64,000 nucleotides of DNA, taken from an uncultured Bacillales bacterium (GTDB lineage: Bacteria; Bacillota_I; Bacilli_A; RF39; UBA660). A program made the translations under genes and the position numbers. Of the stretch, positions 12,327 through 50,600 are shown in pieces. The first letter of the stretch is position 1, and each line of letters opens with the position of its first letter. The stretch lies in assembly GCA_946624985.1 (NCBI GenBank), contig CAMOSQ010000001.1, positions 76,733 through 140,732 of the forward strand, read 5' to 3'. The notes beneath the pieces were generated by a model, which did no database searches, had not been told where the DNA came from, and was given only the letters and a program-made list of their open reading frames with translations.

Positions 12327-12400
12327 AGGGGCGTAGTTAAATGGTATAATAATGGTCTCCAAAACCACTGTTGGGAGTTCGATTCTCTCCGCCCCTGCCA
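12327..12400 (+). tRNA. trnW: tRNA-Trp (anticodon CCA), CCA end encoded
   Basis: Manual fold: acceptor AGGGGCG/CGCCCCT, T-arm GGGAG-TTCGATT-CTCTC, anticodon loop CU-CCA-AA, discriminator G plus CCA. Confidence 0.9.
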
Positions 12401-17748: not shown

Positions 17749-17816
17749 TTTTTTAAAATCTCTTTTTTTTTGTGTTTTATTGTTATATAATATTTATTGT
17801 AGATAGAGGTGTAATA

Positions 17817-18230
17817 ATGAAAAAGTTTTTAGTTATATTATTTTTTTCTTTGATTTTTATTACTGGATGTGGTAATAAGAGAACTACGTATGATGAGATT
17901 AGTTATAGTGATTATAAGATGATGGTTGAAAATAAGGAGTCTTTTCCTCTTGTTATTGGTAGTTCAACTTGTAGTGCTTGTTCTATGTTTAAACCTACTA
18001 TGGAGGCTTTTATTTCTAAGTATAATATTGATGTAAAATATATTGATATTTCTAAGTTATCTGATGAGGAATATAAAGAGTTTTCTGTTTTAGTTGGTTT
18101 TAAGAGTACGCCTACTACTGTTTTTTATAAGGATGGAGAACAATCTTCTAGTTATTTTAGAATTGTTGGAAGTGCTGATTTGAGTAGTGTTGTTGATGCT
18201 TATAAGAGAATGGGTTATATAGGAGGATAA
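17817..18230 (+). CDS. Thioredoxin-fold lipoprotein
   Basis: MKKFLVILFFSLIFITGCGN carries a lipobox. A CSAC active-site motif and a TPT cis-Pro loop are present. Confidence 0.7.
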   Translation: MKKFLVILFFSLIFITGCGNKRTTYDEISYSDYKMMVENKESFPLVIGSSTCSACSMFKPTMEAFISKYNIDVKYIDISKLSDEEYKEFSVLVGFKSTPTTVFYKDGEQSSSYFRIVGSADLSSVVDAYKRMGYIGG

Positions 18231-20066: not shown

Positions 20067-20103
20067 TTTATAATAGTTATTTATATTTGGATAGGTGAGA
20101 TTT

Positions 20104-21657
20104 ATGGTTATAAAAATATACGAAAAAATTAATTCAAATAGAAATTTTTTTGTATTATTTTTTATTATGTTAATGTTGTTATCTTCAATTAATATTTTTA
20201 ATAGTGGTTTAATCACTGGTGATGATATTAATTTTCATATACATCGAATAATTGGTATTGTTGATAATATAAGAATAGGCAGATATGTTCCTGTATATTT
20301 TAATTATTTAAATGGTTTTGGGTATGGTAATGGATTGTTTTATCCTGATTTATTTTTATATATTCCTGCATTATTAAATTATTTGGGAATTGATATTATT
20401 TTGTCGTTAAAGATTTTTATTTTAATTATTAATGCTTTTTCTATATATACAATGTATTTATGTGTTTATAGGATTACTAAAGAAAAAAAATGTGCATATA
20501 CTTCTATGTTTTTGTATGCCTTATGTAATTATAGACTTATTGATTTTGTTTCCAGGGGTTCACTTGGTGAAATGATTTCTTTTGTTTTTTTTCCTTTAAT
20601 TGTACTTGGATTATATGAAATTTTTTTTGGTGAATCTAGGAAAGGTTATTTTTTAACTATAGGTCTTAGTGGTCTATGTTTTTCTCATGTGATTAGTTTT
20701 TATTTAATGTGTTTTTTCACTTTTTTGTTTATTATTTTTAATATAAAGTTATTGAGAGATAAATTTAGATTGAAGTTTTTATTGTTTTATATATTTTTAG
20801 CTATGATAATAACTATACATTTTTGGTTGCCTATGCTAGAGCAATTATTTTTTGATAGTTTCAGGATAGATGCACATAGAAAGATTTTTGAGAATATTAT
20901 TCCCATCTATTTTCTTTTTTTAGATGTGCCTTATAATCTTATTACTAATTATTATATTGCTGGTGTTGGAATCATTTATTATATTAGTATTGTTAAGTAT
21001 TATAAGTTTATAAAATTAGATAGATTTCTTTTGTCTATTGTGATTTTATGTGTTATAGCTACGGCATTTGTTTCTATTAAACTTGTTTGGAAAATTGACA
21101 TATTTTATAAATTGTTTAGTGTTATTCAATTTCCTTGGAGATTTTATATTATTTCTTCGGTTTTTTTTATAATTTGTTTCTCTATTTTGCTTAAATATAT
21201 TCGTTTTAGTAAGTTTTTACACTTTTGTTTTATTTATATAGGTTTAGTTTTTGTGTTTAATTCTTTTCTATTTTCTTTTAATTTATATATGAAAGAGCCT
21301 TTTAAAGATGAAATAATGGTAGGTGAATATTTACCAAAAGGTTTTGATATGGATATTATTTATAATTATAAAAATAATGATATTTTGTATAGTAGGAATT
21401 CTGATGTATTAAATGTTGATGTTATTAATAATGTTGATTTTGTTGAACTACCTTTGATTTATTATCGAGGCTACAAAGCATGTGATAAATTTTGTTATAA
21501 AACTTTTAAAACTGATAATGGGTTATTAGGGGTTAAAATTGACGATATAGGAAGTTTTAATGTTAAGTATTCAGGTACACAAATATATAATATAACTAAA
21601 TATGTAAGTCTTTTTGGTGTTTTTCTTTTGGTTTATGTTATTAAAAGAAATATATGA
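20104..21657 (+). CDS. Polytopic membrane protein, GT-C-like (PTPS-related / COG5617-like)
   Basis: More than 10 predicted TM helices. The N-terminal loop GDDINFHIHRIIGIVDNIRIGRYVPVYFNYLNGFGYGNGLFYP resembles the HD..H..R....G..P.W...GYG.P.F.FY motif of that family. Confidence 0.5.
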   Translation: MVIKIYEKINSNRNFFVLFFIMLMLLSSINIFNSGLITGDDINFHIHRIIGIVDNIRIGRYVPVYFNYLNGFGYGNGLFYPDLFLYIPALLNYLGIDIILSLKIFILIINAFSIYTMYLCVYRITKEKKCAYTSMFLYALCNYRLIDFVSRGSLGEMISFVFFPLIVLGLYEIFFGESRKGYFLTIGLSGLCFSHVISFYLMCFFTFLFIIFNIKLLRDKFRLKFLLFYIFLAMIITIHFWLPMLEQLFFDSFRIDAHRKIFENIIPIYFLFLDVPYNLITNYYIAGVGIIYYISIVKYYKFIKLDRFLLSIVILCVIATAFVSIKLVWKIDIFYKLFSVIQFPWRFYIISSVFFIICFSILLKYIRFSKFLHFCFIYIGLVFVFNSFLFSFNLYMKEPFKDEIMVGEYLPKGFDMDIIYNYKNNDILYSRNSDVLNVDVINNVDFVELPLIYYRGYKACDKFCYKTFKTDNGLLGVKIDDIGSFNVKYSGTQIYNITKYVSLFGVFLLVYVIKRNI

Positions 21658-21698
21658 ATTTTAGTTAATGTGGTAAAATTATATATAGAATGAGGTGT

Positions 21699-24098
21699 AT
21701 GATGAGAAAGTATAAGAAATTAATTTATGGGATTTTATCTTTTTTTATTTCTTTTTTATTATTGGTTATTGTATTTTATTTAAAAGGTTTTTTTGATAAG
21801 AAAACTGTAATGTATACAGATGCTTATGCTCAATATTATCCATTATTTAATTATTTAAAAGGAATTATAAATGGAACAGCTAGTATTTTTTATTCTTTTA
21901 ATAAAAACTTTGGTGGAACAATGTTTGGTACATTTTTTTACTATTTATCTAGTCCTTTAAATATATTTGTGAAGTTTATAAGTAGAGAGTATATTATGTT
22001 ATTCTTTTTATGGCTTATAATTTTTAAAATAAGTTTTTGTAGTTTAAGTATGTATTTATATATGACTTATAAGCATAAGAAATGTGATTTGTTAATTCTT
22101 TGTTTTAGTGTTTGTTATGGATTTATGGGTTATAATATTAATTTCTTTGTTAATTTTATGTGGTTAGATGTTGTTGTTCTTGCTCCAATAGTTTTGATTG
22201 GTTTGGATAAATTAATTAATAAAGATTCACCTTTATTATATATTACTTCATTATTTATTAGTATTTTTTCTAATTATTATATATCATATATGTTGTGTAT
22301 ATTTTGTGTTTTATATTTTATATATGAGGTATTTATAAAATATACTGATAAGAAGGAAATATTGCAGTTGTCAAAGAAGTTTATTATTATTTCTTTGCTT
22401 ACAGGAATGATGTGTTCGTTTTTTTTGATACCATGTTTTTTTGAATCTAGAAATTATTTTAGAGGCTTAGATGTACATAATATCTTTGTTTTTGATTATA
22501 ATATTTTTGATATTTTTTCTAAATCTTTTATTGGATCTATTGCTTTTAAGGATTTACTTAATAATGGTAGTATGAATTTATATTGCGGTGTTTCTGTTTT
22601 TCCTCTTGTATATATGTTTTTGGTTAATAAGAATATATCTAAGAAAAAAAGAATTTTAACTTTATTTTTAATATTATTTATGATTTTACCATGCTTTATT
22701 TTTCCTCTAAATTATGTTTGGCATTTGTTTTCAAAACCTAATTATTATACTTATAGATATAGCTTTTTGTTATGTTTCTTTTTGATTAATATCGCATATG
22801 AGTCTTATGAAAATATGAATTTTAATAAGTTGCATGTTTTATTTTATTTAGCTGTTTATTGCATGATTTCCTTTTATTTTATTTTGATAGTATGTTTTGG
22901 ACAGTATTATGATTTTTTAAGTTATAAATGTATATGGATTACGCTTTTATTTTTATTTATTTATTTATTCTTATTTAAAAATAAAAATGTTTTTAGTAAA
23001 TTGTTAATTTGTTGTTGTTTATTGATTGAAAATATTTTAAATATAGGTATTGTATTTAATGATCCTGTTTTTTTTAAAAAAAAGGATAGCGTTGATGAAT
23101 ACTATTTAAATATTATAGAAAAATATGGTAATGATAGGTTGGATTTTACAGATTATAATTCGCTTAATGATTCAATTTTATATGAGTATTATGGTATAAA
23201 TAATTTTTTGTCTACAAATAACAGTAGGGTAATGCGTATTATTTCAAAGATGGCACTTAAAGGTAACTATATTAATCAAAATTTATATAGTTATCAGAAA
23301 GGACAATATATATTTGATTCTATTATAGGTCTGAAGTATGTTGTTTCTACATATAAGATTGATAATTATATATTAATCGATGAATTTAAAACTGATGATA
23401 ATAATTTTTATGTTTATGAAAATCCTAATTCTATAGGAATTGGGTACATTATAAAGAATGAGTGTAATAATATTGAATTTGATTTTAAATATGATGAGAA
23501 AGTATTTAATTGTATTAGTGGTAGTAAAGGTTCCTTTTATAGTGAATATCCTATTAAAAAAAATAATAATGAGTTTAGTTCAATAATAGGTAAGGCATCT
23601 GATTTTTATTTGTATTATCCAAACATTTCTAGAATTAATCTTAAAGTGGATGATACTGTTTTATATCGTTCAAAGAATTATGTTTTTTTTCAAAATAATA
23701 AAAAAAATTATGATTTTAAATTTAGTATTTATGATGATGTTGATATGGATAATCTTAAAATTTATAGTTTTGATTTTGATAAGTTTAAATCTAGTGTGAA
23801 GGATATGAAAAAGGAAATATTAAATTATAATATTGATGATGATGGATTTGTTGGCAGTATAGATACTGATGGTGGATTGTTGATGATTACTATTCCTTAT
23901 GAAAAGGGTTTGATTGTTAAAGTTGATGGTCAAAAGGTTGATTATAGAGAAGTTATTGATACATTTATTGGAATTGATTTAGATAAAGGTAAACATGAAA
24001 TAACTATTAATTATTCACAGCCTAATTGGGAGCTAGGGGTATGTATAAGTTTTTTATCTTTTATGTTAATTATATTTTATGTAAAAAAACTTTACTAA
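21699..24098 (+). CDS. YfhO-family-like polytopic membrane protein (putative envelope glycosyltransferase)
   Basis: About 800 aa, with many N-terminal TM helices, a large extracytoplasmic C-domain and a terminal TM helix (VCISFLSFMLIIFYV). The N-terminus DAYAQYYPLFNYL is YfhO-like. Confidence 0.55.
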   Translation: MMRKYKKLIYGILSFFISFLLLVIVFYLKGFFDKKTVMYTDAYAQYYPLFNYLKGIINGTASIFYSFNKNFGGTMFGTFFYYLSSPLNIFVKFISREYIMLFFLWLIIFKISFCSLSMYLYMTYKHKKCDLLILCFSVCYGFMGYNINFFVNFMWLDVVVLAPIVLIGLDKLINKDSPLLYITSLFISIFSNYYISYMLCIFCVLYFIYEVFIKYTDKKEILQLSKKFIIISLLTGMMCSFFLIPCFFESRNYFRGLDVHNIFVFDYNIFDIFSKSFIGSIAFKDLLNNGSMNLYCGVSVFPLVYMFLVNKNISKKKRILTLFLILFMILPCFIFPLNYVWHLFSKPNYYTYRYSFLLCFFLINIAYESYENMNFNKLHVLFYLAVYCMISFYFILIVCFGQYYDFLSYKCIWITLLFLFIYLFLFKNKNVFSKLLICCCLLIENILNIGIVFNDPVFFKKKDSVDEYYLNIIEKYGNDRLDFTDYNSLNDSILYEYYGINNFLSTNNSRVMRIISKMALKGNYINQNLYSYQKGQYIFDSIIGLKYVVSTYKIDNYILIDEFKTDDNNFYVYENPNSIGIGYIIKNECNNIEFDFKYDEKVFNCISGSKGSFYSEYPIKKNNNEFSSIIGKASDFYLYYPNISRINLKVDDTVLYRSKNYVFFQNNKKNYDFKFSIYDDVDMDNLKIYSFDFDKFKSSVKDMKKEILNYNIDDDGFVGSIDTDGGLLMITIPYEKGLIVKVDGQKVDYREVIDTFIGIDLDKGKHEITINYSQPNWELGVCISFLSFMLIIFYVKKLY

Positions 24099-24111
24099 GT
24101 AAAAAAAATAA

Positions 24112-24119
24112 TGTATAAT
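24112..24119 (+). promoter_or_regulatory. Extended -10 box (TGTATAAT) upstream of pilin-like gene A
   Basis: TGnTATAAT lies 33 nt upstream of the ATG at 24152. The same box type precedes most operons in the window. Confidence 0.45.
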
Positions 24120-24151: not shown

Positions 24152-24397
24152 ATGAAAGAGGCTGCAGGAGAAGCAAATATGACTGTAATAACAATTGTTT
24201 TAATTGGTGTTGTTGCAGCAGTAGGTTTATTATTAGTTCCAAGACTTATGGGCAATGTTAAGGCAAGAGCATGTTGTACTGATGGTGGTGGATATGTGAG
24301 TGGTTCTTATTGTTTGTGGGGTAAGAATAGTTATGGAAAACTTACTGGTGATACTTTTAAAACAAATGAATATTTTAGTGCTTGTATGGCTGACTAA
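24152..24397 (+). CDS. Pilin-like small protein A (N-terminal hydrophobic helix, Cys-rich head)
   Basis: MKEAAGEANMTVITIVLIGVVAAVGLLLVPRLM is followed by a 48-aa part with five Cys. RBS is GGGAGGTG. Confidence 0.55.
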   Translation: MKEAAGEANMTVITIVLIGVVAAVGLLLVPRLMGNVKARACCTDGGGYVSGSYCLWGKNSYGKLTGDTFKTNEYFSACMAD

Positions 24398-24462
24398 AAT
24401 TTTGATTGTTTATAATTTATTTTTAAACGATTTATTATTATATAAAGAAGGGTGGTGATATT

Positions 24463-24681
24463 GTGAAAGAGGCAGCAGGAGAAGCAAATATGACTGTAAT
24501 AACAATTGTTTTAATTGGTGTTGTTGCAGCAGTAGGTTTATTATTAGTACCAAGATTGATGTCTAATATTAAAAAGAAATCATGTTGTACAGATTCAGCT
24601 GGAATTTGGTCTGGAAATAAGTGTGTTTCAGCAGCTGGTATTTTTTTCGATGAAACTGCATATAATAGTTGTGCACAATAA
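24463..24681 (+). CDS. Pilin-like small protein B (paralog of A)
   Basis: GTG start after GGGTGGTG. The first 33 aa are identical to A and the DNA is near-identical across about 95 nt. The C-terminal part is divergent with four Cys (SCCTD...C...C). Confidence 0.55.
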   Translation: MKEAAGEANMTVITIVLIGVVAAVGLLLVPRLMSNIKKKSCCTDSAGIWSGNKCVSAAGIFFDETAYNSCAQ

Positions 24682-24736
24682 TGGTTCGTTCTATTTTCTA
24701 TTATAATTTTATTTGTTTCATGAAATAAATAAAAGT

Positions 24737-24762: not shown

Positions 24763-24817
24763 AATTTGTATATTTTTTTTTTTTATGGTATAATTTCTAT
24801 AGAATAGGAAGGGTATT

Positions 24818-26407
24818 ATGATATTTAAGAAACCTTATGCATTTTTTATTAAGTTTTTTAAGTTTTTTCATTTAATTATATTTTTACTTTCTTCTATATT
24901 ATTATATAGGACTTCTTTAGTATATAATTTTATGATGGAATATTGTAAGTCTAACCCTAATGTTATAGGTAAGAACTTAACTTCGACTTTGTTTGTATGG
25001 TGGGTTTATTTATTAATATTTATAATACTTGCTGTTAATATATTGATAATTATTGTTTTAATTCGTAAGGTAAAACCTTATATGTATTATATTTTTAATA
25101 TAGGTTTATACATTTTTGTTGCGGTTGTTTTTATTGTGTCTCATCGTGTTATTGGAAATATGCAAACTATGTTAGTCGCTACTAAAACTACTTTAGCAAT
25201 TCGTGATTTTCTTAATTTAGCTCGTTTGTTTCAGACTGTAAGTGTTGTATTTTATTTAATACGTTCTACAGGTTTTGATATTAAAAAGTTTGATTTTGTT
25301 AGAGATTTGCATGGAATGGATATTTCTGAAGAAGATAGTGAAGAAATAGAAGTGTCTGTAGAATTTGAGGGTAATGTTTTTATTAGAAATATTAGAAAAG
25401 AATTAAGAAATATTAGATATTATTATAAAGAAAATAAGTTCATTATTAATATTTTTTCTATGTTATTTCTTTCTTTTATATTTTTATTTATTTATTTTAG
25501 TTTTAATAAGTATGATAAGGTTTATAATGAGAATAGTTTTTTTAGTGTTGGTGGATATAATATTGGAGTAAAATCTAGTAGTATTTTAAGTACTGATTTT
25601 ATGGGCAATAAGATTGTTTCTGATGATAGTGTGTTAGTTGTTATTAAGTTTTCTGTAAAAGGATTGGAACCATTATCTTCTTCAAAGTTTGTATTGGTTG
25701 TTAATGGTATGCAGTATTATCCTGTTAGCGGATATGATTCATATCTTACTGATTTAGGAATTGTTTATAATAATCAATTAATTAATAATGAGTTTAGTGA
25801 TTATTTGTTTGTTTATTCAATTCCTAAGGATAGTGCTGAATCTTCTATGATTTTTAGATGTATAGATAGTATTAATTTTAAGAGGGGAAATACTATAGTT
25901 AATTCTATTGATGTTAAACTTGATCCTATTAATTATGACAATGCAGATATTAAAACTTATGAATATGGTTTGAATAATGTTATTGATATTGACGATTACA
26001 AAGTTAATATTGTTGATTATGATATTAGTAAATCTTTTGTTGTTAATTATAATTCTTGTATTTTACCTAATGAGTGCTATGATTTTAAGGAAGTTTTATT
26101 ACCTAGCTTAATGAGAAATAGGGAAAAGATTTTATTAAAGTTAAATGGTAGTGTTAGTAATTCTATAGGTAATTTAAATATGTATAAGTTTATTAAAAAT
26201 TATGGAAGTATTGATTATGTATATATTGGAAATAATTATACAGAAATTTCTGATTTTAATGTTGTTGTTTCTTCTAAGTCTAGTCTTTCTAATGTTTATT
26301 ATATAGAAGTTGATAAGGAGATTATGGATGCATCTTCAATCAAATTTAATTTTAATTTTAGAGATCGAAAATATAGTTATATTTTAAGGGGTGATAGTAA
26401 TGAGTAA
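24818..26407 (+). CDS. Membrane protein of unknown function (N-terminal multi-TM block, acidic linker, TM helix, large extracytoplasmic domain)
   Basis: The long ORF is preceded by T12 plus TGGTATAAT. Hydrophobic segments occupy residues 1-160 and about 210-230. Confidence 0.55.
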   Translation: MIFKKPYAFFIKFFKFFHLIIFLLSSILLYRTSLVYNFMMEYCKSNPNVIGKNLTSTLFVWWVYLLIFIILAVNILIIIVLIRKVKPYMYYIFNIGLYIFVAVVFIVSHRVIGNMQTMLVATKTTLAIRDFLNLARLFQTVSVVFYLIRSTGFDIKKFDFVRDLHGMDISEEDSEEIEVSVEFEGNVFIRNIRKELRNIRYYYKENKFIINIFSMLFLSFIFLFIYFSFNKYDKVYNENSFFSVGGYNIGVKSSSILSTDFMGNKIVSDDSVLVVIKFSVKGLEPLSSSKFVLVVNGMQYYPVSGYDSYLTDLGIVYNNQLINNEFSDYLFVYSIPKDSAESSMIFRCIDSINFKRGNTIVNSIDVKLDPINYDNADIKTYEYGLNNVIDIDDYKVNIVDYDISKSFVVNYNSCILPNECYDFKEVLLPSLMRNREKILLKLNGSVSNSIGNLNMYKFIKNYGSIDYVYIGNNYTEISDFNVVVSSKSSLSNVYYIEVDKEIMDASSIKFNFNFRDRKYSYILRGDSNE

Positions 26408-27020
26408 ATTAAGAATTTTATTGTTTTTACTTATTGTTCCCTTATCTGTAAGTGCGGCTTGTGATTCTTCTAGTTTATCAAGATATAAGAGTTTAGCTGC
26501 GAATATAAATAATTATTATGAGTATAATGGAAGCAGTTTTGATGTTACATTTTATAATGTTTCTAATGAACTTAAAATCGTAAATAAAAGTAATGGACAG
26601 GAATTTTTTCCTAATTCTAATTTTGGAGATGTTGTAGTAAATAATTTATCTAGTGGAGATGTGGGTAATTTTGCTGTATATCCTTCTACTGGTGAATGTA
26701 GTGCTTATAGGGTTTTTACTTTTTATATTAATCTTCCATATTATAATAGTTATTCAAGTGATCCTATTTGTGTTAATAATAGTAGTACTTTATGTTCTAA
26801 ATGGTCAAATACTAGTATGTATAGCTATGAACAGTTTGTTAATGCTGTAAAAAAAGATAAGAAGGAAGAAATTGTAACTCCTCCTCCAGAGGTTGAATCA
26901 CGAAGATATGGATTTTTTGATTTTTTAGGTGATTATTATATTTATATTTTATTATTTATAATTATTAGTGGTTCTATAGGAATATATTTCTTGGATAAGA
27001 AAAGTAAATTTGATTTTTAA
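26400..27020 (+). CDS. Secreted Cys-containing protein with a C-terminal TM anchor
   Basis: Signal peptide MSKLRILLFLLIVPLSVSA and C-terminal helix YYIYILLFIIISGSIGIYFL. The ATG overlaps the upstream stop, consistent with translational coupling. Confidence 0.5.
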   Translation: MSKLRILLFLLIVPLSVSAACDSSSLSRYKSLAANINNYYEYNGSSFDVTFYNVSNELKIVNKSNGQEFFPNSNFGDVVVNNLSSGDVGNFAVYPSTGECSAYRVFTFYINLPYYNSYSSDPICVNNSSTLCSKWSNTSMYSYEQFVNAVKKDKKEEIVTPPPEVESRRYGFFDFLGDYYIYILLFIIISGSIGIYFLDKKSKFDF

Positions 27021-27048
27021 AAAAAATGAAGGGTTTCCTTCATTTTTG
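27020..27048. terminator. Bidirectional terminator between convergent genes
   Basis: AAAAAATGAAGG-GTTT-CCTTCATTTTT. Confidence 0.7.
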
Positions 27049-27942
27049 TATTTGAATTGATTTTAAATATTCTTTTGTATATCCGGTTGTTCTTGATATA
27101 ATATCAAGTGGGATATTTTCTTTTAATAATATACATGCTGTTTTTATTTTATTTTGTGTGATTCCCTGTTCAAGTCCTTGTTCAAGTCCTTGTTCATGGG
27201 CTTTTTTCTTAGCTGTTTTCAAGATTGCTCTTTGTAACTTTTCGTATGATTCTTGATCTGTCATAAAACTAAATATATTTTTTTCATTGTATTTTTTTAC
27301 CATATTTCCTATCTCCTTTACTATTTCATCATATTTTCCAAGTAGTTCTAGTTCTTCTTTATTACAATCAAATATTATTATATGGGCATGTTCTTTAATT
27401 AACTCCTTGTTACCAGTATACAATATTTTTTTATATTTTGCAACATCATATACTAAAAAATTAATATTATCTATAAATTTATTATTATAGTTTTCTCCTA
27501 GCAAACAATGATTATCATATTCGTAGTTTTCTTCAATGTTATTACAAATATTTATTTGTATACATCTTGGTTGCTCGTCATAATCTTGTCCATGTTTTAG
27601 TATGTTTGAATAAATATTTGATAGATATGCAAAATTTCTTTTTTTTACATTTATATCAAATATATTATTTACTTCTAAATCGATTATTTCGTTTTTTCTT
27701 TTAACAAGTAAATCTACAGTTTTTTTTCTAACGTGAACATTACTTGTTATTAATTCTTGCTTTAACAGTTCTATAATACTGTTTTCATTTATTTCTTTGT
27801 TATCAATTTTATTAATTATAGAATAATCATCAAATTTTTTTCTGAGAAATTTTTCCAATAACCAACTCATATATTTTTTATTTGAGAAAATTAATTTGAA
27901 CATAGAATCATTAGAAAGTTTTTTAAAATCATTTTTTGTCAT
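27040..27942 (-). CDS. PD-(D/E)XK nuclease family transposase-like protein (Rpn/YhgA-like), copy 1
   Basis: N-terminus KLSNDSMFKLIFSNKKYMSWLLEKFL, core TVDLLVKRKNEIIDLEVNN, and C-terminal EQGLEQGLEQGI repeats followed by a helix-turn-helix-like tail. TGA stop. Confidence 0.6.
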   Translation of the reverse strand: MTKNDFKKLSNDSMFKLIFSNKKYMSWLLEKFLRKKFDDYSIINKIDNKEINENSIIELLKQELITSNVHVRKKTVDLLVKRKNEIIDLEVNNIFDINVKKRNFAYLSNIYSNILKHGQDYDEQPRCIQINICNNIEENYEYDNHCLLGENYNNKFIDNINFLVYDVAKYKKILYTGNKELIKEHAHIIIFDCNKEELELLGKYDEIVKEIGNMVKKYNEKNIFSFMTDQESYEKLQRAILKTAKKKAHEQGLEQGLEQGITQNKIKTACILLKENIPLDIISRTTGYTKEYLKSIQIQK

Positions 27943-28123: not shown

Positions 28124-29317
28124 ATGAAAAAAGTTAAGAATTTAAGAGTTGCTGCGGCATTACAAGCAATATTGTTATCAGGGGCTACTTTGTCTGCTTT
28201 TGTTTCTTGTGCTGATGATGATATGGAAGTTGCTGATAATCCAGCTATTGTTTCTGAGATTGTAGATTTAGATAATACTTCTAAAGTAGAGAAAGTGACT
28301 ACTGTTCAGACTGATTATGTCGGTGAATTTAGTGATGAAGTTGAAGATGAATATGTTGATTCTGATGCAGTAATTGTTACTGATCTTAATGAGAATGAAA
28401 GTTCTGAGGAAAAAATTACTATGACTGTTAGTACAGCTTCTAATAGTGAGGATAAAGGTACTACTAAGAGTGAGAAAGGTACTAAAAAAACAAATAAAAG
28501 TACTTCTAAGTCTGGAGATGTGGCAGGTAAGAGTGGTGATGTAACAACTAAAGTTACTGATAAAAAACAAGGTGTAACAACTAAGACTACTGTTAAGGAA
28601 ACTAGTCCAGTTACTAAAAAGACTACTGTTAAGATAACTACAGTTACTAAACCAGTTACAACTAAGACTATTACTACTGAAGCTAAGACAGAGCCAAAGA
28701 CAGAACCTATTACTGAGCCTCCTGTTGTTACTGATGCTCCTAGATCTGATTATAGTATTAATGAAATTTGTTATGATGCAAATGCATTTAATTATTTTGC
28801 TGATAAATTATGTGTTGATTTAAAAACCACTGGTGATGGTAGTTATTATGATTTTGTCAATGGTTCTCCACTTTTTAAGGAATCTAAATATTTATTGGCT
28901 TTATTAAATGAGGGATATATTAATGAAGATGTTTTGATGACTGTTTTTGCTGATTTTTCTTCTTATGATATGGATAGATCGAATAGTTTCTTTGGTGATT
29001 ATTTGTTTCATCAAAGTACTATGTCGAATAAGGTTAAATTTGGTTTGTATTCTTGCGATGATTGCCAATATGGTCAATATATTGATCAAATCAATGATGC
29101 TTATTTGAATAATTACTTTGATCAATTTGCTACTGATCAACTTGTTGATGGTAATATTGAACAAAGATATCTTGATAGTACAGCTATAAGAGTTTATTTT
29201 GATTTATGCGATTATCATGATTTATATACTGAGGATACTGATTTCTTTTTTGAAACTTTCCCATATATGGATAAATTGGAATCGATTGTAAATGGAAGAA
29301 GCTATTCTCTTAATTAA
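28124..29317 (+). CDS. Lipoprotein with a Thr/Lys/Val-rich low-complexity linker
   Basis: Lipobox LSAFVSCADD. The linker reads TTKTTVKETSPVTKKTTVKITTVTKPVTTKTITTEAKTEPKTEPITEPP, followed by a C-terminal globular part with Cys. Confidence 0.6.
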   Translation: MKKVKNLRVAAALQAILLSGATLSAFVSCADDDMEVADNPAIVSEIVDLDNTSKVEKVTTVQTDYVGEFSDEVEDEYVDSDAVIVTDLNENESSEEKITMTVSTASNSEDKGTTKSEKGTKKTNKSTSKSGDVAGKSGDVTTKVTDKKQGVTTKTTVKETSPVTKKTTVKITTVTKPVTTKTITTEAKTEPKTEPITEPPVVTDAPRSDYSINEICYDANAFNYFADKLCVDLKTTGDGSYYDFVNGSPLFKESKYLLALLNEGYINEDVLMTVFADFSSYDMDRSNSFFGDYLFHQSTMSNKVKFGLYSCDDCQYGQYIDQINDAYLNNYFDQFATDQLVDGNIEQRYLDSTAIRVYFDLCDYHDLYTEDTDFFFETFPYMDKLESIVNGRSYSLN

Positions 29318-29349: not shown

Positions 29350-29425
29350 AATTATATAAAAATATTGTTTTTTTTATCTTTTTTTGTTATACTTTTATAT
29401 AGGATAAGGATATTTGGTGATTTAT

Positions 29426-31891
29426 ATGAAGAATATATATGTTAAAAGATTTTTAAATGTCTTATTATTTTTCTTTTTTTTGCTAGGATTTAGTATTGAT
29501 TATGTTTTTGCGGATCCTCAAATTATTATAGATGCTGGTGGCGGAGATTCTGCTTCCACTGCAGCTCCTCGTGCTGGAAATTGGGATACCAGTTTCCAAG
29601 GTTTTGGTGGATATAGAGTAACCTTAGTTGACAAGAATGGTAAAAGAGTATCGGGAACTAGGAGTGTTGATTTTTATAATCCTGGTAATGGTAATAATAT
29701 TTCAACTTATAGGTTAGTTTATGGTGATAAGTATTTATATAGGACTAGTGAAAGATCTAGTGTTCAAGATGCTAATTATGTATCTAAAGATGGTTTGGTT
29801 AGATATGGTTCTAGTTATATTCCTTTTGGAAAATGGCAAAGTACAGGATTATTCGCTGATGTTGAAGCGGATGAAAATTTTAGAGAACAGTATATAAAGA
29901 ATTATGAGAATAATAAAGTTTTTTGCCTTAATGGCGAAGAATGTAATGACAAGTTAGATTTTCTTTCTTTGTTTTTACATCTTTCTAATTATTTAAGTAG
30001 TAGTGATAATTTGTTTTATAATAATACTCAAAAAACAATTGAATTGTTGGATTATTCCATATTTATTGAACATTTATATAAAATAGGTGGTGTAAATGTT
30101 TATGGAACTGGTTTTGAAATGTATTACGACAGTGGTGATCCACTTACTGAAAAAATTAGAAATCAACAAGCACTTGAAAATTTTAGATTTGTATGTTCTT
30201 CTTATTCAAGAAGTGGTCCTTCTGAATTGTTTGAAAATTATCCTAGTGATTATCATGAGTGTTTAGAAAATGGAATGGCATATAATGGTAAAATTTATAT
30301 AGGTAATGCTGGAAACTGGGCAGATTTACCTGGTATTACTCTTTCTACAACTGCTCATGGTGATGTTTGGGATGTTTACAAGGGTAATGTTCAAAAATTT
30401 AAAGATGTTCAAGATAAAATTGCTGTTGGAGTTACTACTGTTATGATGAAAGATGTTGTTGAGCGTCCTCCTTTTGAATCAGAAATGAATTTGTGTAATA
30501 ACGGAATTGTCTCTTTTAAATCTAATTCTAATACTAAATCTAATGTAGAAGAAGGTGATGAGGTTTTCAAAAAAGAACTTTTTAAAACAAATAATAAAGT
30601 TGATGATTCTCAAGCATTGTATTGTTATGATATTGCCACATATAATTATTCTGATACTATTGAATCTTTGGGAGGGATAAAAGCTTTAAATACTAACATC
30701 GAACCTAAACCTATAACAGCTACAATTACTAGACGTTGTTATAATGTTAATGGTAGTGAAAAACTTGCTGATCAAATATCTAAAGATTATAATGAATCAA
30801 TATATATTCGAAATTTATATGGTAATGATTATGAATTTTCTTCTTCAAAATGTAGTGATATTAAAACTGTATCCCATAATGGTGTTTCAGTTGTATCATG
30901 CAAAATAAATTATAGTTTGTCTAATTCTATTACTCTATCTCGTTTTTCTATTAATAGAAATTTGCTTAATAAGGAAAATACGGCTTATATTGATTTTTCA
31001 AATTATAAGGAAAGATTTGGTGCTAGCAATAAATTAATTAACGAAATATTAAATAATGGTATTTCTCTTCCTTCAATTAATTTTTTTAGAGAAGATAAGT
31101 TTATAGAAATTGATGAATACAAGTATAGATTAACTAGCCCATCTTTATCAGGTGATTCTGGTAAATGCTCTTTTAATTATACTATTGAGGCTGATGAATC
31201 TATGCTGTCTTCTAATTCTAATTTTAAATTTAGAGTAATATCCCTAGATAATCCCTTTCCTGCAAGAGATGGAACTTTTAGAATGCCTGGTTTGAACTGG
31301 TTGTCATCAACTGATAATAATGTCTTTGAGTATATAACTAATAATAGAGGTATTAGGTATGTTACTAAATCAAATGATGTTAGTCCTGAGGAAATGTATA
31401 ATAAGGTTGAGCCTATGTATACGGTAACACTTACACCTTCTACTATGATTAAGATTAGAAATTATAATAAGAAGTATGCTTATGATTCTATGTATCAGTC
31501 TATGAGTGCGGATGTTACTTCTCATGGAGCTTATAAGCTTGAGTGTAATTATCACGATTTGGGAAATGGTGATATTGGAAATGGCAGAGAATGTTATAGT
31601 ACATTCTTAAGAAAATATATTAATGATAGTATGGGTGGAGTGTGTTATTTGTCTCCTAGTGAATTAAATAAGGATGTTACAGGTTATAAAAAAGATCTTT
31701 CACCTTTATTATATATTTTGAATAGTTCAAGTACTTCATATAGTATAGATTATGATTTGAATAAAAATAATAGAAATGATGCACTTGATTGGTATATTCT
31801 TCAACCAGAAAATCGAGGAAAAAATATTCAATATTATACTTGTGCAAATAAGACTTTCTTAAGTGGTGGTCCTATTGAGGGAGGTAGGTAG
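29426..31891 (+). CDS. Large secreted protein (822 aa) of unknown function, first gene of the Tad-like operon
   Basis: Signal peptide MKNIYVKRFLNVLLFFFFLLGFSIDYVFA. There are no further TM helices but many Cys. Its stop lies 2 nt before the first minor-pilin-like gene. Confidence 0.55.
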   Translation: MKNIYVKRFLNVLLFFFFLLGFSIDYVFADPQIIIDAGGGDSASTAAPRAGNWDTSFQGFGGYRVTLVDKNGKRVSGTRSVDFYNPGNGNNISTYRLVYGDKYLYRTSERSSVQDANYVSKDGLVRYGSSYIPFGKWQSTGLFADVEADENFREQYIKNYENNKVFCLNGEECNDKLDFLSLFLHLSNYLSSSDNLFYNNTQKTIELLDYSIFIEHLYKIGGVNVYGTGFEMYYDSGDPLTEKIRNQQALENFRFVCSSYSRSGPSELFENYPSDYHECLENGMAYNGKIYIGNAGNWADLPGITLSTTAHGDVWDVYKGNVQKFKDVQDKIAVGVTTVMMKDVVERPPFESEMNLCNNGIVSFKSNSNTKSNVEEGDEVFKKELFKTNNKVDDSQALYCYDIATYNYSDTIESLGGIKALNTNIEPKPITATITRRCYNVNGSEKLADQISKDYNESIYIRNLYGNDYEFSSSKCSDIKTVSHNGVSVVSCKINYSLSNSITLSRFSINRNLLNKENTAYIDFSNYKERFGASNKLINEILNNGISLPSINFFREDKFIEIDEYKYRLTSPSLSGDSGKCSFNYTIEADESMLSSNSNFKFRVISLDNPFPARDGTFRMPGLNWLSSTDNNVFEYITNNRGIRYVTKSNDVSPEEMYNKVEPMYTVTLTPSTMIKIRNYNKKYAYDSMYQSMSADVTSHGAYKLECNYHDLGNGDIGNGRECYSTFLRKYINDSMGGVCYLSPSELNKDVTGYKKDLSPLLYILNSSSTSYSIDYDLNKNNRNDALDWYILQPENRGKNIQYYTCANKTFLSGGPIEGGR

Positions 31892-31893: not shown

Positions 31894-32310
31894 ATGCATG
31901 AGTCGTTTTGGGGAACTTTTATAATTGGAGCAGGTGTAGTTATTATTGGTCTTATATTTTTTATGCAAAATGTTACTAATAATGAACAGGAATTGTATTC
32001 GATTTTAAAAGATACGACCGAGGCTGCAATGCTTGATGCTTTTGATTATGATTCTTATTATACTGATACACATGGTAATGGTAAGGTTATTAGAATAGAT
32101 AGAGAGGCTTTTGTTGAAAGTTTTGTTAGAAGATTTTCTCAAAATGCTTCTCTTACAAATACATATGTTATTGAATTTTATGATATTAATGAATATCCAC
32201 CTAAGGTGAGTATTAGAGTTAAATCAAAAACTGGTGGTGTTGTGATGAATCAAGAATTTGATTTTTCTAATTCTAGTCAAATTGATGCAATTCTTGAATC
32301 TGTTGAATAG
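31894..32310 (+). CDS. Minor pilin / TadE-like protein 1
   Basis: A short polar N-terminus is followed by a single hydrophobic helix (MHESFWGTFIIGAGVVIIGLIFF). Supported by position in the Tad-like operon. Confidence 0.4.
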   Translation: MHESFWGTFIIGAGVVIIGLIFFMQNVTNNEQELYSILKDTTEAAMLDAFDYDSYYTDTHGNGKVIRIDREAFVESFVRRFSQNASLTNTYVIEFYDINEYPPKVSIRVKSKTGGVVMNQEFDFSNSSQIDAILESVE

Positions 32311-32322: not shown

Positions 32323-33132
32323 GTGAAAGAAAGTATTAGTTATTCATTTTTACTTAATATTATTATTTTATTTATCTTTGTTTGTGCTGCAATTGTAACT
32401 GGTATTTTTAGTTATTATCGGGCTTTTAAGGCTAATAATATTATTACTAGTGAAATTGAAAAGTATGAAGGTTATAATTGCGAATCAAAGAAAGCTATTG
32501 AAAGAAAATTGGGTGGAGTATCGTATAATGTTCCATTTAATGTAAAGTGTAAAAAAAGTGATGAGAATTGTATTACTGATGATGAAGAAAATGGTAATTA
32601 TGCAGTAGTTGCTTATAACCTTGATTATAAAAGTGGTACATATGCTTTTGATGATAACATGAATTCTAGTGTTTCTTCAGATGGATATACTAAGAGTTAT
32701 CAATATGGTGTTTATACTTATATGTATGTAGATCTACCTGTTGTTTCGAGTATTATTAGAATTCCTGTTTTTTCAAAAACAAAGGAATTGCATGAATTTA
32801 GAGATCTTGTCAGTGTGAAAAGTGTTTCTAATGCAGATTTTGTTATAGATGCTGGTATACTTCCATATTCTATTTCTTCTATGCTTGATTATGAAACTTA
32901 TGAAAAGGTTAAAGGTACTTTTTCTTTTCAACTTCAACAAAATCTTGCTGATAAAGTTGCTGGTAATCCATATAAATATGGAGCTAATCCTGATGAATAT
33001 GGAAATGGTAGGAAAGTATCTGATATTTTGGATCTAAGAGAAGCTTATAAATATTATGATGCATCTGGTCAAAATATTTTAACTGAAGGAAGACATGCAT
33101 GTGGAACAACCGTTGATTGGTCTGTTTTTTAG
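32323..33132 (+). CDS. Minor pilin / TadE-like protein 2
   Basis: VKESISYSFLLNIIILFIFVCAAIVTGIF, the same N-terminal architecture. Confidence 0.4.
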   Translation: MKESISYSFLLNIIILFIFVCAAIVTGIFSYYRAFKANNIITSEIEKYEGYNCESKKAIERKLGGVSYNVPFNVKCKKSDENCITDDEENGNYAVVAYNLDYKSGTYAFDDNMNSSVSSDGYTKSYQYGVYTYMYVDLPVVSSIIRIPVFSKTKELHEFRDLVSVKSVSNADFVIDAGILPYSISSMLDYETYEKVKGTFSFQLQQNLADKVAGNPYKYGANPDEYGNGRKVSDILDLREAYKYYDASGQNILTEGRHACGTTVDWSVF

Positions 33133-39023: not shown

Positions 39024-39044
39024 ACTTTTTAAGTCTTTTTTTTT
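39022..39044 (+). terminator. Terminator hairpin
   Basis: AGACTT-TTT-AAGTCT followed by T8. Confidence 0.6.
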
Positions 39045-39130
39045 GTGTAAACATGTTCTTTTATTATATTATTTTCGTTGATTATTTTATTGTTTTATGG
39101 TATTCTAATATTAGAAATGGATGTGAATTT

Positions 39131-39751: not shown

Positions 39752-39791
39752 TATAATTAATAGTTTAGTTTATATATAAGGAGATATATGT

Positions 39792-41120: not shown

Positions 41121-41121
41121 T

Positions 41122-41340: not shown

Positions 41341-41346
41341 TATTTG

Positions 41347-41374: not shown

Positions 41375-41397
41375 ATTTGTTCAAAGAGGAGGATGTT

Positions 41398-43980: not shown

Positions 43981-43992
43981 AAAGGAGATATT

Positions 43993-50599: not shown

Positions 50600-50600
50600 T

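What the first reader, a model, noticed from the sequence alone, without database searches (positions are those of the whole stretch)
24152..24681. Tandem pilin-like paralogs: identical 33-aa N-termini, divergent Cys-rich heads, and an N-terminal signature shared with the Tad-operon minor pilins
The two small ORFs share MKEAAGEANMTVITIVLIGVVAAVGLLLVPRLM, with DNA near-identical over about 95 nt. They then diverge completely except for a CCTD...C...C scaffold. This is the classic pilin pattern of a conserved assembly helix with a variable, disulfide-stabilised head. The 5' homogenisation suggests gene conversion. Their N-terminus (M-K-E-A-A-G, then a hydrophobic helix) resembles those of the three minor-pilin-like genes 7-9 kb downstream (MKGAIG-NAFIL..., VKESIS-YSFLL..., MHESFWG-TFII...). 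That hints at a common processing site after G/S. They lack the canonical Flp G/XXXXEY motif and the type IVa G/FTLIE motif, so they would be a non-canonical pilin class. They are candidate major subunits of the Tad-like machine.
Basis: partly seen in the sequence, partly recalled or inferred. Interest (0 to 1): 0.65.

Follow-up and report, generated by a model that had tools for sequence, protein, structure and literature searches.

The report
New pilin-like family in gut Bacilli
Two adjacent small genes encode members of an unnamed, widespread family of pilin-like proteins (invariant N-terminal helix, variable disulfide-bonded head) that almost always sits inside a pilus-assembly/type IV secretion gene cluster in uncultured gut Bacilli; they are most likely the main building blocks of a surface filament that has not been described.

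Summary
ORFs 24152..24397 (81 aa) and 24463..24681 (72 aa) share 33 identical N-terminal residues. DNA identity is 94/99 nt there and about 45% just outside.

They belong to a large family with no name and no Pfam model (424 clusters at 50% identity). MKEAAGEANxTVITxxLIG is essentially invariant, and 198 of 200 members have an even number of cysteines.

- In 79 of 80 genomes the gene lies in one conserved cluster. In 70 of 73 loci it starts about 110 nt after the second membrane-protein gene and just before two minor-pilin-like genes.
- Those genes and DUF5411 share the leader M-[KR]-E-[AS]-x(1-2)-G.
- AlphaFold gives a helix at residues 7-44 plus a small β-sheet head (pLDDT 84).
- Synonymous divergence of the 5' part is 0.13-0.18 between paralogs in one genome and 0.5-0.66 between orthologs. 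The heads group by ortholog, so gene conversion is supported.

Not shown: cleavage (no A24 peptidase in 84 kb of this contig or in 1.35 Mb of related loci), and Tad membership. The ATPase scores equally as VirB11, TadA or FlaI, the membrane proteins give no T2SSF match, and CpaB is below cut-off. A Mycoplasma-ICE-type T4SS is fused downstream.

Verdict: real, a new variant of type IV-filament pilins. Interest 0.6.

The parts
24091..24119 (+). promoter-like site upstream of copy 1 (TTTACT-17-TATAAT)
   Evidence: Consensus scan only. The region has fewer such sites than shuffled sequence, so this is weak evidence.
24152..24397 (+). pilin-like gene, copy 1 (81 aa; long-head type, orthologous to L001:1134)
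   Evidence: AlphaFold model: helix 7-44 plus β head. Head is 67% identical to L001:1134.
24152..24250 (+). 5' homogenised tract of copy 1 (codons 1-33: leader MKEAAG plus hydrophobic helix)
   Evidence: 94/99 nt identical to 24463..24561. dS is 0.13 within the genome and 0.5-0.66 against orthologs.
24409..24438 (+). promoter-like site upstream of copy 2 (TTTATA-18-TATTAT)
   Evidence: Consensus scan only.
24463..24681 (+). pilin-like gene, copy 2 (72 aa, GTG start; short-head type, orthologous to L001:1465)
   Evidence: Head is 67% identical to L001:1465.
24463..24561 (+). 5' homogenised tract of copy 2
24707..24734 (.). AT-rich palindrome after copy 2; possible terminator, weak
   Evidence: I9, 18-nt arms, 94% complementary. 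The terminator scan itself found none.
21690..24098 (+). YfhO-type GT-C membrane glycosyltransferase directly upstream; possible pilin-modifying enzyme
   Evidence: Pfam YfhO E 2e-135. A YfhO homolog lies in the locus in 9/80 related loci, and between the pilin and minor-pilin genes in L008, L009 and L018 (directly after the pilin gene in L005, where no minor-pilin genes were detected).
24818..26407 (+). conserved 529-aa polytopic membrane protein with a large C-terminal domain; function unknown
   Evidence: No Pfam hit. Present in 61/80 loci. Conservation map.
26391..27020 (+). conserved 209-aa protein with a signal-peptide-like N-terminus, 4 conserved Cys and a C-terminal TM segment; function unknown
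   Evidence: Present in 59/80 loci.
29414..31891 (+). 825-aa secreted protein, present in part of the loci; candidate adhesin or tip protein (inference)
   Evidence: Present in 30/80 loci. No Pfam hit.
31894..32310 (+). DUF5411 protein, minor-pilin-like (N-terminus MHESFWG plus hydrophobic helix)
   Evidence: Pfam DUF5411 E 4e-44. Present in 66/80 loci. 60/67 homologs start [MVL][KR]E[AS]xxG/A/S, mostly MKESFWG.
32323..33132 (+). minor-pilin-like gene (269 aa; MKESIS plus hydrophobic helix)
   Evidence: Present in 71/80 loci. Family consensus MKESIGxxFxxNxII.
33142..33750 (+). minor-pilin-like gene (202 aa; MKGAIG plus hydrophobic helix), paralogous to the previous one
   Evidence: Present in 66/80 loci.
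33830..34633 (+). CpaB/RcpC-like protein (below curated cut-offs)
   Evidence: TIGR03177 pilus_cpaB E 1e-7, 31 bits against a cut-off of 71. Pfam RcpC E 0.008. Present in 69/80 loci.
34642..35748 (+). secretion ATPase of the T2SSE superfamily (VirB11/TadA/FlaI branch)
   Evidence: PF00437 E 2e-28. PDB best hits FlaI, CpaF and VirB11, all about 1e-17. NCBIfam VirB11 3.5e-36, TrbB, TIGR03819 TadA-conjugal and FlaI, all below cut-off. Present in 71/80 loci at a median of 76% identity.
35758..36660 (+). conserved polytopic membrane protein in the position that tadB occupies (identity inferred only)
   Evidence: Present in 71/80 loci at 67% median identity. At least 8000 homolog clusters, all unnamed. 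No T2SSF signal.
36660..37463 (+). second conserved polytopic membrane protein in the position that tadC occupies (identity inferred only)
   Evidence: Present in 73/80 loci. No T2SSF signal.
37546..38595 (+). conserved 349-aa protein; possible TadZ/ParA-like protein (motif TPGAGSTT only)
   Evidence: Present in 66/80 loci. Conserved K..T...G.TT. No Pfam, NCBIfam or PDB hit.

Best explanation
The two genes encode alternative or co-assembling major subunits (pilins) of a type IV-filament-like surface fibre. The fibre would be built by the conserved neighbouring machine: a secretion ATPase, two polytopic membrane proteins, a CpaB-like protein, and three minor-pilin-like proteins including DUF5411.

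Proposed mechanism (shown versus inferred):
- Each protein inserts in the membrane with its short N-terminus (MKEAAG) in the cytoplasm and its head outside. This is inferred from the even cysteine count.
- The leader M-[KR]-E-[AS]-x-G is shared with the minor subunits. It is recognised, and probably removed after the Gly, by a processing enzyme encoded elsewhere in the genome. The shared motif is shown; cleavage is inferred.
- The invariant hydrophobic helix (residues 7 to about 32) packs into the filament core and docks on the equally conserved membrane platform, which explains its near-total invariance.
- The small head, held by two or three disulfides, is surface-exposed and free to diverge.
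- Tandem copies keep identical assembly helices through recurrent gene conversion of the 5' 99 nt, while their heads evolve independently. One machine can therefore display different surfaces.

In nearly all genomes the cluster is fused to a Mycoplasma-ICE-type type IV secretion system. The filament most likely serves cell-cell or cell-surface contact for that system, or general adhesion in the gut.
For: Synteny:
- 79/80 species-level loci that carry a family member also carry at least 2 machine components.
- In 70/73 loci with the tadC-position gene, the pilin gene starts within 400 nt (median 112 nt) after it and directly before the two minor-pilin-like genes.
- L084 and L085 repeat the window's own arrangement.

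Shared leader: the motif is present in 89/89 major pilins, 60/67 DUF5411 proteins, 37/72 and 47/67 members of the two minor families in its strict form (59/72 and 61/67 relaxed). It occurs nowhere else in the window.

Structure: AlphaFold2 with 120 sequences gives pLDDT 84. Residues 1-6 are unstructured, a continuous helix spans 7-44, and a 3-strand sheet and short helices follow.

Topology: 198/200 distinct members have 2, 4 or 6 Cys, and one of the two exceptions is a mis-called start. In 199/200 there is no Cys before the end of the hydrophobic helix.

Conservation: K2, E3, G6, E7, A8, N9, T11-T14, L17, I18, G25 and P30 are invariant in 120 sequences. The motif persists in the most distant of 424 clusters at 50% identity.

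Gene conversion: 5' dS is 0.13-0.18 between most paralog pairs within a genome (up to 0.29; two divergent copies excepted), 0.5-0.66 between orthologs, and 0.4-1.3 in the heads of the same pairs.

Machine: T2SSE ATPase at E 2e-28 and a CpaB-like protein.
Against: - No A24 prepilin peptidase was found in the 64-kb window or in 10 kb beyond each end. No G[GAS][GAH]D[VILAFM][KR] motif was found in 1.35 Mb of window plus related loci.
- There is no Glu at +5, and no Pfam pilin model of any kind matches.
- Flanking charges run against the positive-inside rule for an N-in topology. The N-flank is always -1, and the flank after the helix is mostly +1 to +3.
- No PDB sequence or fold match was found for the pilin.
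- The putative platform proteins show no T2SSF similarity by Pfam on 32 members, by PDB profile search, or by Foldseek on a pLDDT-70 model.
- The ATPase scores best against VirB11 models, so the module could be part of the T4SS rather than a pilus machine.
- No expression or protein data are available.
Confidence: 0.66

Rival explanations
1. The proteins are pilin-like, but they form only a short pseudopilus or piston that spans the cell wall. This would be an integral part of the adjacent Mycoplasma-ICE-type T4SS, for DNA export or uptake, analogous to the Com pseudopilus. They would not form a long adhesive pilus.
For: - The Tad-like module and the T4SS genes (VirB2-like T4SS_pilin ORFs, TrbL/VirB6-like, split VirB4, hydrolase) are contiguous in most long loci.
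- VirB4 is 78% identical across species.
- The ATPase's best model is VirB11.
- A VirD4 coupling protein is present.
Against: - The heads are hypervariable and amplified in tandem (2-5 copies). That is expected for an exposed filament surface, not for a buried piston.
- Glycosyltransferase genes lie next to the pilin genes.
- No relaxase was seen in the window.
Confidence: 0.2
2. They are exported or anchored cysteine-rich effector, bacteriocin-like or signalling peptides. The conserved N-terminus would be a dedicated export signal for the neighbouring secretion machine, and they would not polymerise.
For: - They are small, with variable disulfide-rich C-termini.
- They occur in multi-copy arrays, each copy with its own promoter-like site and Shine-Dalgarno sequence.
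- A Peptidase_C39_2-like protein is encoded in the locus, with a borderline 24-bit score, and is conserved in 45 loci.
Against: - There is no double-glycine leader. The leader is only 6 residues and is followed by a 22-residue hydrophobic helix that is invariant, unlike signal peptides.
- The same leader heads three larger structural proteins.
- No immunity-gene-like partner is evident.
- The AlphaFold helix 7-44 is continuous with the head.
Confidence: 0.08
3. They are ordinary single-pass membrane proteins with an N-out/C-in topology and a cytoplasmic Cys-rich metal-binding tail, like the FeoB-associated Cys-rich family. They would act as accessory or regulatory subunits of the machine.
For: - The positive-inside rule favours a cytoplasmic C-terminus.
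- There is a weak Pfam hit to PF12669 FeoB_associated, E 0.036 and 14.8 bits against a cut-off of 27.
Against: - Strict even parity of Cys (2/4/6) across 200 members fits disulfide pairs better than metal sites.
- The heads vary in length, with frequent insertions and deletions.
- The Pfam hit covers only the hydrophobic helix.
- The leader is shared with the minor-pilin-like proteins.
- Secreted thioredoxin-like proteins are encoded nearby.
Confidence: 0.06

Closest known systems
Flp/Fap pilins of Tad (tight adherence) type IVc pili (Pfam PF04964)
   Same: - Very small subunits (50-90 aa), mostly an N-terminal hydrophobic helix.
- Encoded in a cluster with a CpaB/RcpC-like protein, a TadA/CpaF-branch ATPase, two consecutive polytopic membrane-protein genes and pseudopilin-like genes that share the leader.
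- Tandem flp paralogs are common (own knowledge).
   Different: - No G/XXXXEY Flp motif, and no Pfam pilin model matches.
- The leader is 6 residues and invariant (MKEAAG), with Glu at +1 rather than +5.
- The head is stabilised by disulfides.
- No TadV peptidase, TadE/F or T2SSF signal is detectable.
ComGC-type competence pilins of Bacillota (type IV pilin, N-methyl motif G/FTLxE)
   Same: - Found in monoderm hosts, with a short leader ending in Gly and a small pilin.
- B. subtilis ComGC needs an intramolecular disulfide made by BdbDC (own knowledge). Here there are disulfide-type cysteines and thioredoxin-like genes nearby.
   Different: - No FTLxE or Glu5 motif, and no Pfam pilin model matches.
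- The assembly genes differ: there is no ComGB-type T2SSF hit.
Streptococcus sanguinis PilE1/PilE2 tandem major pilins and Neisseria pilE/pilS gene conversion
   Same: - Adjacent pilin genes with near-identical N-terminal halves and divergent heads.
- Recombination or gene conversion acts on pilin genes (own knowledge of these systems). Concerted evolution was measured here.
   Different: - Here conversion homogenises the conserved 5' part rather than shuffling the variable 3' part.
- All copies are complete genes with their own Shine-Dalgarno and promoter-like sites.
- No silent cassettes were found in the window.
DUF5411-containing 'putative secretion-related system' predicted in Roseburia/Ruminococcus/Eubacterium (Miller et al. 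2022, PMC9523054) and the TANB77 Tad-like pilin cluster (PMC11680825)
   Same: - Gut Bacillota clusters that combine a CpaF-type ATPase and a DUF5411 protein (the Clostridia system), or CpaB, TadZ and unannotatable single-TM pilin-like proteins (TANB77).
- Both were recognised only computationally or by structural homology.
   Different: - Those systems have a recognisable PilC/GspF or TadB/TadC platform.
- The TANB77 pilin-like proteins are 143-237 aa.
- Neither paper describes the 55-120-aa MKEAAGEAN family or a fused T4SS.
VirB2/T4SS_pilin arrays of Patescibacteria monoderm-type T4SS (PMC12102498)
   Same: Variable tandem pilin arrays next to an MPF-FATA-type VirB4, often without a relaxase.
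   Different: Those are VirB2-like pilins with two TM segments. VirB2-like ORFs are separate genes here (38652..39023 and 39053..39751). The family studied here has a single helix and a class-III-like leader.

Membership tests
Type IV pilin / type IV filament subunit (class III signal peptide) | Short N-terminal leader ending in Gly (-1), followed by about 20 hydrophobic residues | tested here: met
   MKEAAG followed by EANMTVITIVLIGVVAAVGLLLVP. G6 is invariant in 120 sequences.
Type IV pilin / type IV filament subunit (class III signal peptide) | Glu at position +5 of the mature protein | tested here: not met
   Position +5 is Thr. The invariant Glu residues are at -4 (E3) and +1 (E7).
Type IV pilin / type IV filament subunit (class III signal peptide) | Processing by an A24 (GxGD aspartic) prepilin peptidase encoded in the genome | tested here: inconclusive
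   None was found in 84 kb of this contig, and no GxGD-K motif in 1.35 Mb of window plus related loci. The rest of the genome could not be searched with these tools.
Type IV pilin / type IV filament subunit (class III signal peptide) | Extended N-terminal α-helix carrying a β-sheet head (lollipop fold) | tested here: inconclusive
   The AlphaFold model has a helix at 7-44 and strands at 48-50, 53-56 and 59-63, with pLDDT 84. Foldseek against the PDB gave no match at E < 1.
Type IV pilin / type IV filament subunit (class III signal peptide) | Genetic linkage to a PilB/TadA-superfamily ATPase and a PilC/TadB/FlaJ (T2SSF) platform protein | tested here: inconclusive
   The ATPase matches PF00437 at E 2e-28 and is linked in 71/80 loci. 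The two adjacent polytopic proteins have no T2SSF signal by Pfam, PDB profile or Foldseek.
Flp/Tad pilin (PF04964) and Tad locus | Flp motif G/XXXXEY and a match to the Flp_Fap model | tested here: not met
   The sequence after G6 is EANMTV. No Pfam pilin model matches at E <= 0.1.
Flp/Tad pilin (PF04964) and Tad locus | Tad gene set: CpaB/RcpC, TadA/CpaF, TadB, TadC, TadZ, TadE/F, TadV | tested here: inconclusive
   The CpaB-like protein is below cut-off (31 bits against 71). The ATPase is ambiguous between VirB11, TrbB, TadA and FlaI. TadB, TadC and TadZ are inferred from position or motif only. Only 1 of 55 minor-pilin homologs gave a TadE/G hit, at E 0.02. No TadV was found.
ComGC / N-methyl type IVa-like pilins | G/F-T-L-x-E N-methylation motif | tested here: not met
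   The motif is absent from the sequence, and no Pfam or NCBIfam pilin model matches.
Double-glycine-leader bacteriocins/peptides (C39 processing) | A 15-30-aa leader ending in GG/GA/GS, with no membrane-spanning segment in the mature peptide | tested here: not met
   The leader is 6 aa and ends in A-G. A 22-residue invariant hydrophobic helix follows.
FeoB-associated Cys-rich membrane protein (PF12669) | Match to the family model above the gathering score | tested here: not met
   E 0.036 and 14.8 bits against a cut-off of 27. Only copy 2 matched, and only over the hydrophobic helix.
VirB2/TrbC/T4SS_pilin (PF18895) | Match to the model; two hydrophobic segments | tested here: not met
   No hit for either copy, and each has a single hydrophobic segment. 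The weak T4SS_pilin hits belong to other ORFs, at 38652..39023 and 39053..39751.

The most novel reading that the evidence does not exclude
An order-wide, vertically conserved composite nanomachine of uncultured, genome-reduced gut Bacilli (RF39/Coprosoma-like). In it, a highly diverged archaeal/Tad-like filament module uses a new pilin class with an invariant leader MKE[AS]xG and Glu at +1, which is processed by a non-A24 enzyme or not at all. That module is mechanistically coupled to a Mycoplasma-ICE-type T4SS. This would be the first type IV-pilin-based mating or DNA-exchange pilus of a monoderm T4SS. Tandem, gene-converted, possibly glycosylated head variants would set partner or host-surface specificity.
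Probability: 0.25. Interest if true: 0.8.

Novelty: new variant of a known kind. Interest (0 to 1): 0.6.

Why it matters
RF39-like Bacilli are common, uncultured members of the human and animal gut with reduced genomes, and how they attach to or exchange material with other cells is unknown.

- This family and its machine (424 clusters at 50% identity for the pilin; at least 8000 clusters at 90% identity for the tadB-position protein) are entirely unannotated. Naming them would annotate thousands of 'hypothetical' genes.
- An exposed, variable, disulfide-bonded pilin head is a candidate adhesin, an antigen and a strain marker.
- The invariant leader predicts a new recognition rule for pilin processing.
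- The physical fusion with a monoderm T4SS suggests an unexplored route of horizontal gene transfer, or of dependence on partner cells.
- The clean 5'-only concerted evolution is a tidy natural example of gene conversion that maintains an assembly interface while the heads diversify.

Tried and rejected
- **Profile search of the family against PDB sequences:** nothing at E <= 10.
- **Foldseek of the pilin model against the PDB:** only noise at E > 3.
- **PHROGs and NCBIfam scans of the pilins and neighbours:** nothing meaningful.
- **Classifying the two membrane proteins as TadB/TadC:**
  - Pfam scan of 16 + 16 diverse members gave no T2SSF hit.
  - PDB profile searches found nothing relevant.
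  - hhalign of one family against the other found no relationship.
  - AlphaFold (pLDDT 70) plus Foldseek gave no match.
- **Classifying the 349-aa protein as TadZ and the 267-aa protein as CpaB through PDB sequences:** no hits.
- **Search for a prepilin peptidase:**
  - A Pfam scan of 60 window ORFs (nearly all of those >= 100 aa) found none.
  - The Pfam tables for 10 kb beyond both window ends listed none.
  - A regex for the GxGD-K motif in all loci gave 0 hits.
- **Pfam scan of 55 minor-pilin homologs for TadE/pseudopilin models:** a single hit at E 0.02.
- **Silent pilS-like cassettes or extra copies in the window:** none.
- **Invertible or shufflon-like inverted repeats around the genes:** only AT-rich noise.
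- **Literature searches** (DUF5411; RF39 + Tad + pili; Tad + VirB4 + Gram-positive; the peptide string MKEAAGEAN): no description of this family.
- **Source names for 10 NCBI-held members:** none.
- **Rejected idea, transposon rearrangement:** I first thought the window's gene order came from the nearby PDDEXK_2 genes. L084 and L085 have the same order without them.
- **One failed look-up and one script error:** no bearing on the result.
Full report
**1. The observation**

The two ORFs exist as described.
- Copy 1 runs 24152..24397 (81 aa, ATG start), preceded by AAGGGAGGTGA. The longer TTG start at 24119 is not supported by the homologs.
- Copy 2 runs 24463..24681 (72 aa, GTG start), preceded by AAGGGTGGTGA.
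- Residues 1-33 (MKEAAGEANMTVITIVLIGVVAAVGLLLVPRLM) are identical.
- At an offset of 311 nt, DNA identity is 94/99 in codons 1-33. It is 25/52 immediately upstream, 22/33 in the next 11 codons and 24/57 beyond that (170-nt repeat).
- The heads are 38% identical and share C41, C42, G51, C54 and a C-terminal Cys.
- Each copy has its own promoter-like site (weak evidence).
- No further copies or silent cassettes occur in the window, and no inversion-type repeats.

**2. A large family that nobody has named**

- A search of 5.8 billion proteins gave 1307 hits (E <= 10). None carries a Pfam domain or a name.
- An exhaustive profile search of 1.84 billion representatives gave 424 clusters at 50% identity, all 55-122 aa long.
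- In 120 aligned members K2, E3, G6, E7, A8, N9, T11, V12, I13, T14, L17, I18, G25, P30, C42, C54 and the last Cys are invariant.
- Even the most distant members, whose heads are reduced to a single Cys-Cys loop, keep MKEAAGEAN(M/L/I)TV.
- The amino-acid identity of the two N-termini is therefore first of all family-wide purifying selection.
- Hosts are uncultured gut Bacilli, labelled 'Tenericutes', 'Acholeplasma sp. CAG:878', Candidatus Coprosoma or Erysipelotrichaceae MAGs.
- Pfam, NCBIfam, PHROGs and PDB sequence profiles, ten NCBI-held members, and a full-text search for the peptide all gave nothing.

**3. Context: the decisive evidence**

I compared the window's neighbouring proteins with 80 species-level loci holding a family member, with up to 10 kb on each side.
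- Number of loci containing each neighbour: ATPase 71, the two polytopic membrane proteins 71 and 73, CpaB-like protein 69, DUF5411 66, the two minor-pilin-like genes 71 and 66, the 349-aa protein 66, the 529-aa and 209-aa proteins 61 and 59.
- 79 of 80 loci hold at least two components. The exception, L003, ends about 250 nt after the gene.
- The usual gene order is 529 - 209 - (825) - DUF5411 - CpaB-like - ATPase - membrane protein 1 - membrane protein 2 - PILIN - minor - minor - 349-aa.
- In 70 of 73 loci the pilin gene starts within 400 nt (median 112 nt) after membrane protein 2.
- The window shows a second architecture. Two to five tandem pilin genes lead the operon, in front of the 529-aa gene. 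L001 (five copies), L002, L084 (two copies) and L085 (three copies) share it.
- This second order is therefore a genuine variant, not a product of the nearby PDDEXK_2 genes.

**4. The shared leader**

- All 89 major-subunit genes start MKE[AS]AG.
- 60 of 67 DUF5411 homologs start [MVL][KR]E[AS]xx[GAS], most often MKESFWG.
- The two paralogous minor families start M[KR]E[SA][IV][GAS]: 37/72 and 47/67 in the strict form, 59/72 and 61/67 relaxed.
- In the window the pattern followed by a hydrophobic stretch occurs at 4 of 960 candidate starts, all in this system.
- Four protein families of one operon that share a 6-7-residue leader ending in Gly before a hydrophobic helix is the defining logic of type IV filament subunits. 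The signature itself is new: Lys/Arg at -5, Glu at -4, Ala/Ser at -3. The major subunit has Glu at +1 and no Glu at +5.

**5. Structure and topology**

- AlphaFold2 on the 120-sequence alignment gives mean pLDDT 84. Residues 1-6 are unstructured, one helix spans 7-44, three short strands follow (48-50, 53-56, 59-63), and then two short helices. This is a miniature pilin 'lollipop' whose helix begins exactly after G6.
- Foldseek found no PDB match, which is unsurprising for an 81-residue model, so fold membership stays unproven.
- The Cys count is 2, 4 or 6 in 198 of 200 distinct members. One of the two odd cases is a mis-called start, and in 199/200 there is no Cys before the end of the hydrophobic helix.
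- This argues for disulfide pairs and hence an extracytoplasmic head.
- Against it, the flank charges (N-flank always -1; post-helix flank mostly +1 to +3) would by the positive-inside rule favour the opposite topology. This is the main internal inconsistency.
- Secreted thioredoxin-like ORFs lie in the window, at 6087..6878 and 17772..18230.

**6. Gene conversion**

- Heads group by ortholog. W:24152 is 67% identical to L001:1134, and W:24463 is 67% identical to L001:1465. The heads of W:24152 and W:24463, the two paralogs compared here, are 38% identical; L001:1134 and L001:1465 are 34% identical.
- The 5' 96 nt group by genome: 3-5 differences within a genome against 10-13 between genomes, with six fixed genome-specific synonymous differences.
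- By Nei-Gojobori, 5' dS is 0.13-0.18 between paralogs of one genome and 0.51-0.66 between orthologs. Head dS of the same pairs is 0.4-1.3.
- The pattern recurs in L003, L084, L085 and L065. L001:732 and the L072 pair are exceptions.
- Head dN/dS between orthologs is 0.36-0.54: relaxed, not demonstrably positive selection.

**7. What the machine is**

- Only the ATPase is firmly assignable (PF00437, E 2e-28).
- Its PDB neighbours FlaI, CpaF and VirB11 tie at about 1e-17. Its best NCBIfam models are VirB11, TrbB, a 'TadA family conjugal transfer-associated ATPase' and FlaI, all below their cut-offs.
- The CpaB-like protein is sub-threshold (TIGR03177 at 31 bits against 71).
- The two membrane proteins are extremely conserved (67% and 58% median identity; at least 8000 clusters at 90% identity for the first, all 'hypothetical'). 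They show no T2SSF signal by any method tried.
- The 349-aa protein has only a ParA/TadZ-like TPGAGSTT motif.
- 'Tad-like' is therefore a reasonable working label based on gene order, not a demonstrated membership.
- No A24 peptidase was found in 84 kb of the contig or in the related loci. The rest of the genome could not be searched.

**8. The fused type IV secretion system**

- Directly downstream lie two VirB2-like T4SS_pilin ORFs, a TrbL/'Mbov_0396'-like protein, a VirB4 of the Mycoplasma-ICE family (E 8e-102), a SpoIID/NlpC-P60 hydrolase and VirD4.
- The VirB4 is split into 181-aa and 594-aa ORFs.
- This order, including the VirB4 split, recurs in most long loci, with VirB4 about 78% identical across species.
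- The flanking genes are housekeeping genes: the dnaK operon, alaS and secA.
- The filament module and a monoderm T4SS thus form one conserved super-cluster. This suggests, but does not show, that the filament serves mating, DNA exchange or partner contact.

**9. Comparison with what is known**

- The closest functional analogs are Flp/Tad pilins (similar size and operon logic) and ComGC (a monoderm pilin with a disulfide). Both memberships fail on their defining motifs.
- Tandem major pilins with identical N-termini recall S. sanguinis PilE1/PilE2.
- Related but distinct clusters have been flagged computationally: a DUF5411/CpaF/PilC system in Clostridia (PMC9523054) and the TANB77 Tad-like pilins of 143-237 aa (PMC11680825). 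Neither paper describes this family.

**10. Verdict**

- These are best explained as major subunits of an undescribed type IV-filament-like fibre (confidence about 0.66). This is a new variant of a known kind.
- Open questions remain about processing, about the platform proteins and about the link to the T4SS. Interest 0.6.

Noticed in passing
window 21690..24098 (and 20095..21657); L005, L008, L009, L018, L085: A YfhO-type GT-C glycosyltransferase ends 54 nt before pilin copy 1. A YfhO homolog lies in the locus in 9/80 related loci. It sits between the pilin and minor-pilin genes in L008, L009 and L018, and directly after the pilin gene in L005, where no minor-pilin genes were detected. L085 has YfhO plus PMT_2 genes directly upstream of a three-copy pilin array. 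This suggests pilin glycosylation.
   Followed up: partly
window 38652..56557: A monoderm T4SS of the Mycoplasma-ICE type is fused to the filament module. It comprises two VirB2-like T4SS_pilin ORFs, a TrbL/Mbov_0396-like protein, VirB4 (Mbov_0397 family), a SpoIID+NlpC/P60 hydrolase, a C39_2-like protein and VirD4. No relaxase was seen in the window. The arrangement is conserved in most long related loci.
   Followed up: partly
window 45984..48605: VirB4 is split into separate ORFs. The 181-aa ORF matches model positions 99-276 and the 594-aa ORF matches 295-891, preceded by a 104-aa ORF. All three pieces are conserved and adjacent in about 32-37 other species. This looks like a natural split gene rather than a pseudogene.
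   Followed up: partly
window 27040..27942 (-) and 51349..52302 (+): Two paralogous PDDEXK_2 'transposase' (Rpn-like) genes in opposite orientation bracket the main filament/T4SS cluster. Each sits at a point where the window's gene order differs from other loci.
   Followed up: no
window 24773..24784: A T12 homopolymer lies inside the 17-nt spacer of a promoter-like TTGTAT...TATAAT upstream of the 529-aa gene. It could act as a slipped-strand phase-variation switch for the assembly operon, or it may just be AT-rich noise.
   Followed up: no
window 6087..6878 and 17772..18230: Two thioredoxin-like ORFs, with partial TraF/PedC-like hits. They are candidate extracytoplasmic oxidoreductases for the pilin disulfides.
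   Followed up: no
window 121..1172; L081 9390..10618: A tyrosine integrase is split into two ORFs (Arm-binding/SAM-like N-terminal part and catalytic domain), probably a frameshifted remnant. tRNA-Trp lies at 12327..12400.
   Followed up: no
L081 1860..4673 (contig just upstream of the window): An agr-type quorum-sensing module (AgrB, a 39-aa peptide gene, a histidine kinase, a LytTR regulator) lies about 6-8 kb upstream of the window start.
   Followed up: no
window 28124..29317: A 397-aa lipoprotein-like ORF with a Thr/Lys-rich low-complexity stretch has no tblastn match in the 80 loci. However, ORFs of similar size (415 aa and 408 aa) occupy the same position in L084 and L085. It is presumably a fast-evolving surface component of the type-2 operon.
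   Followed up: no
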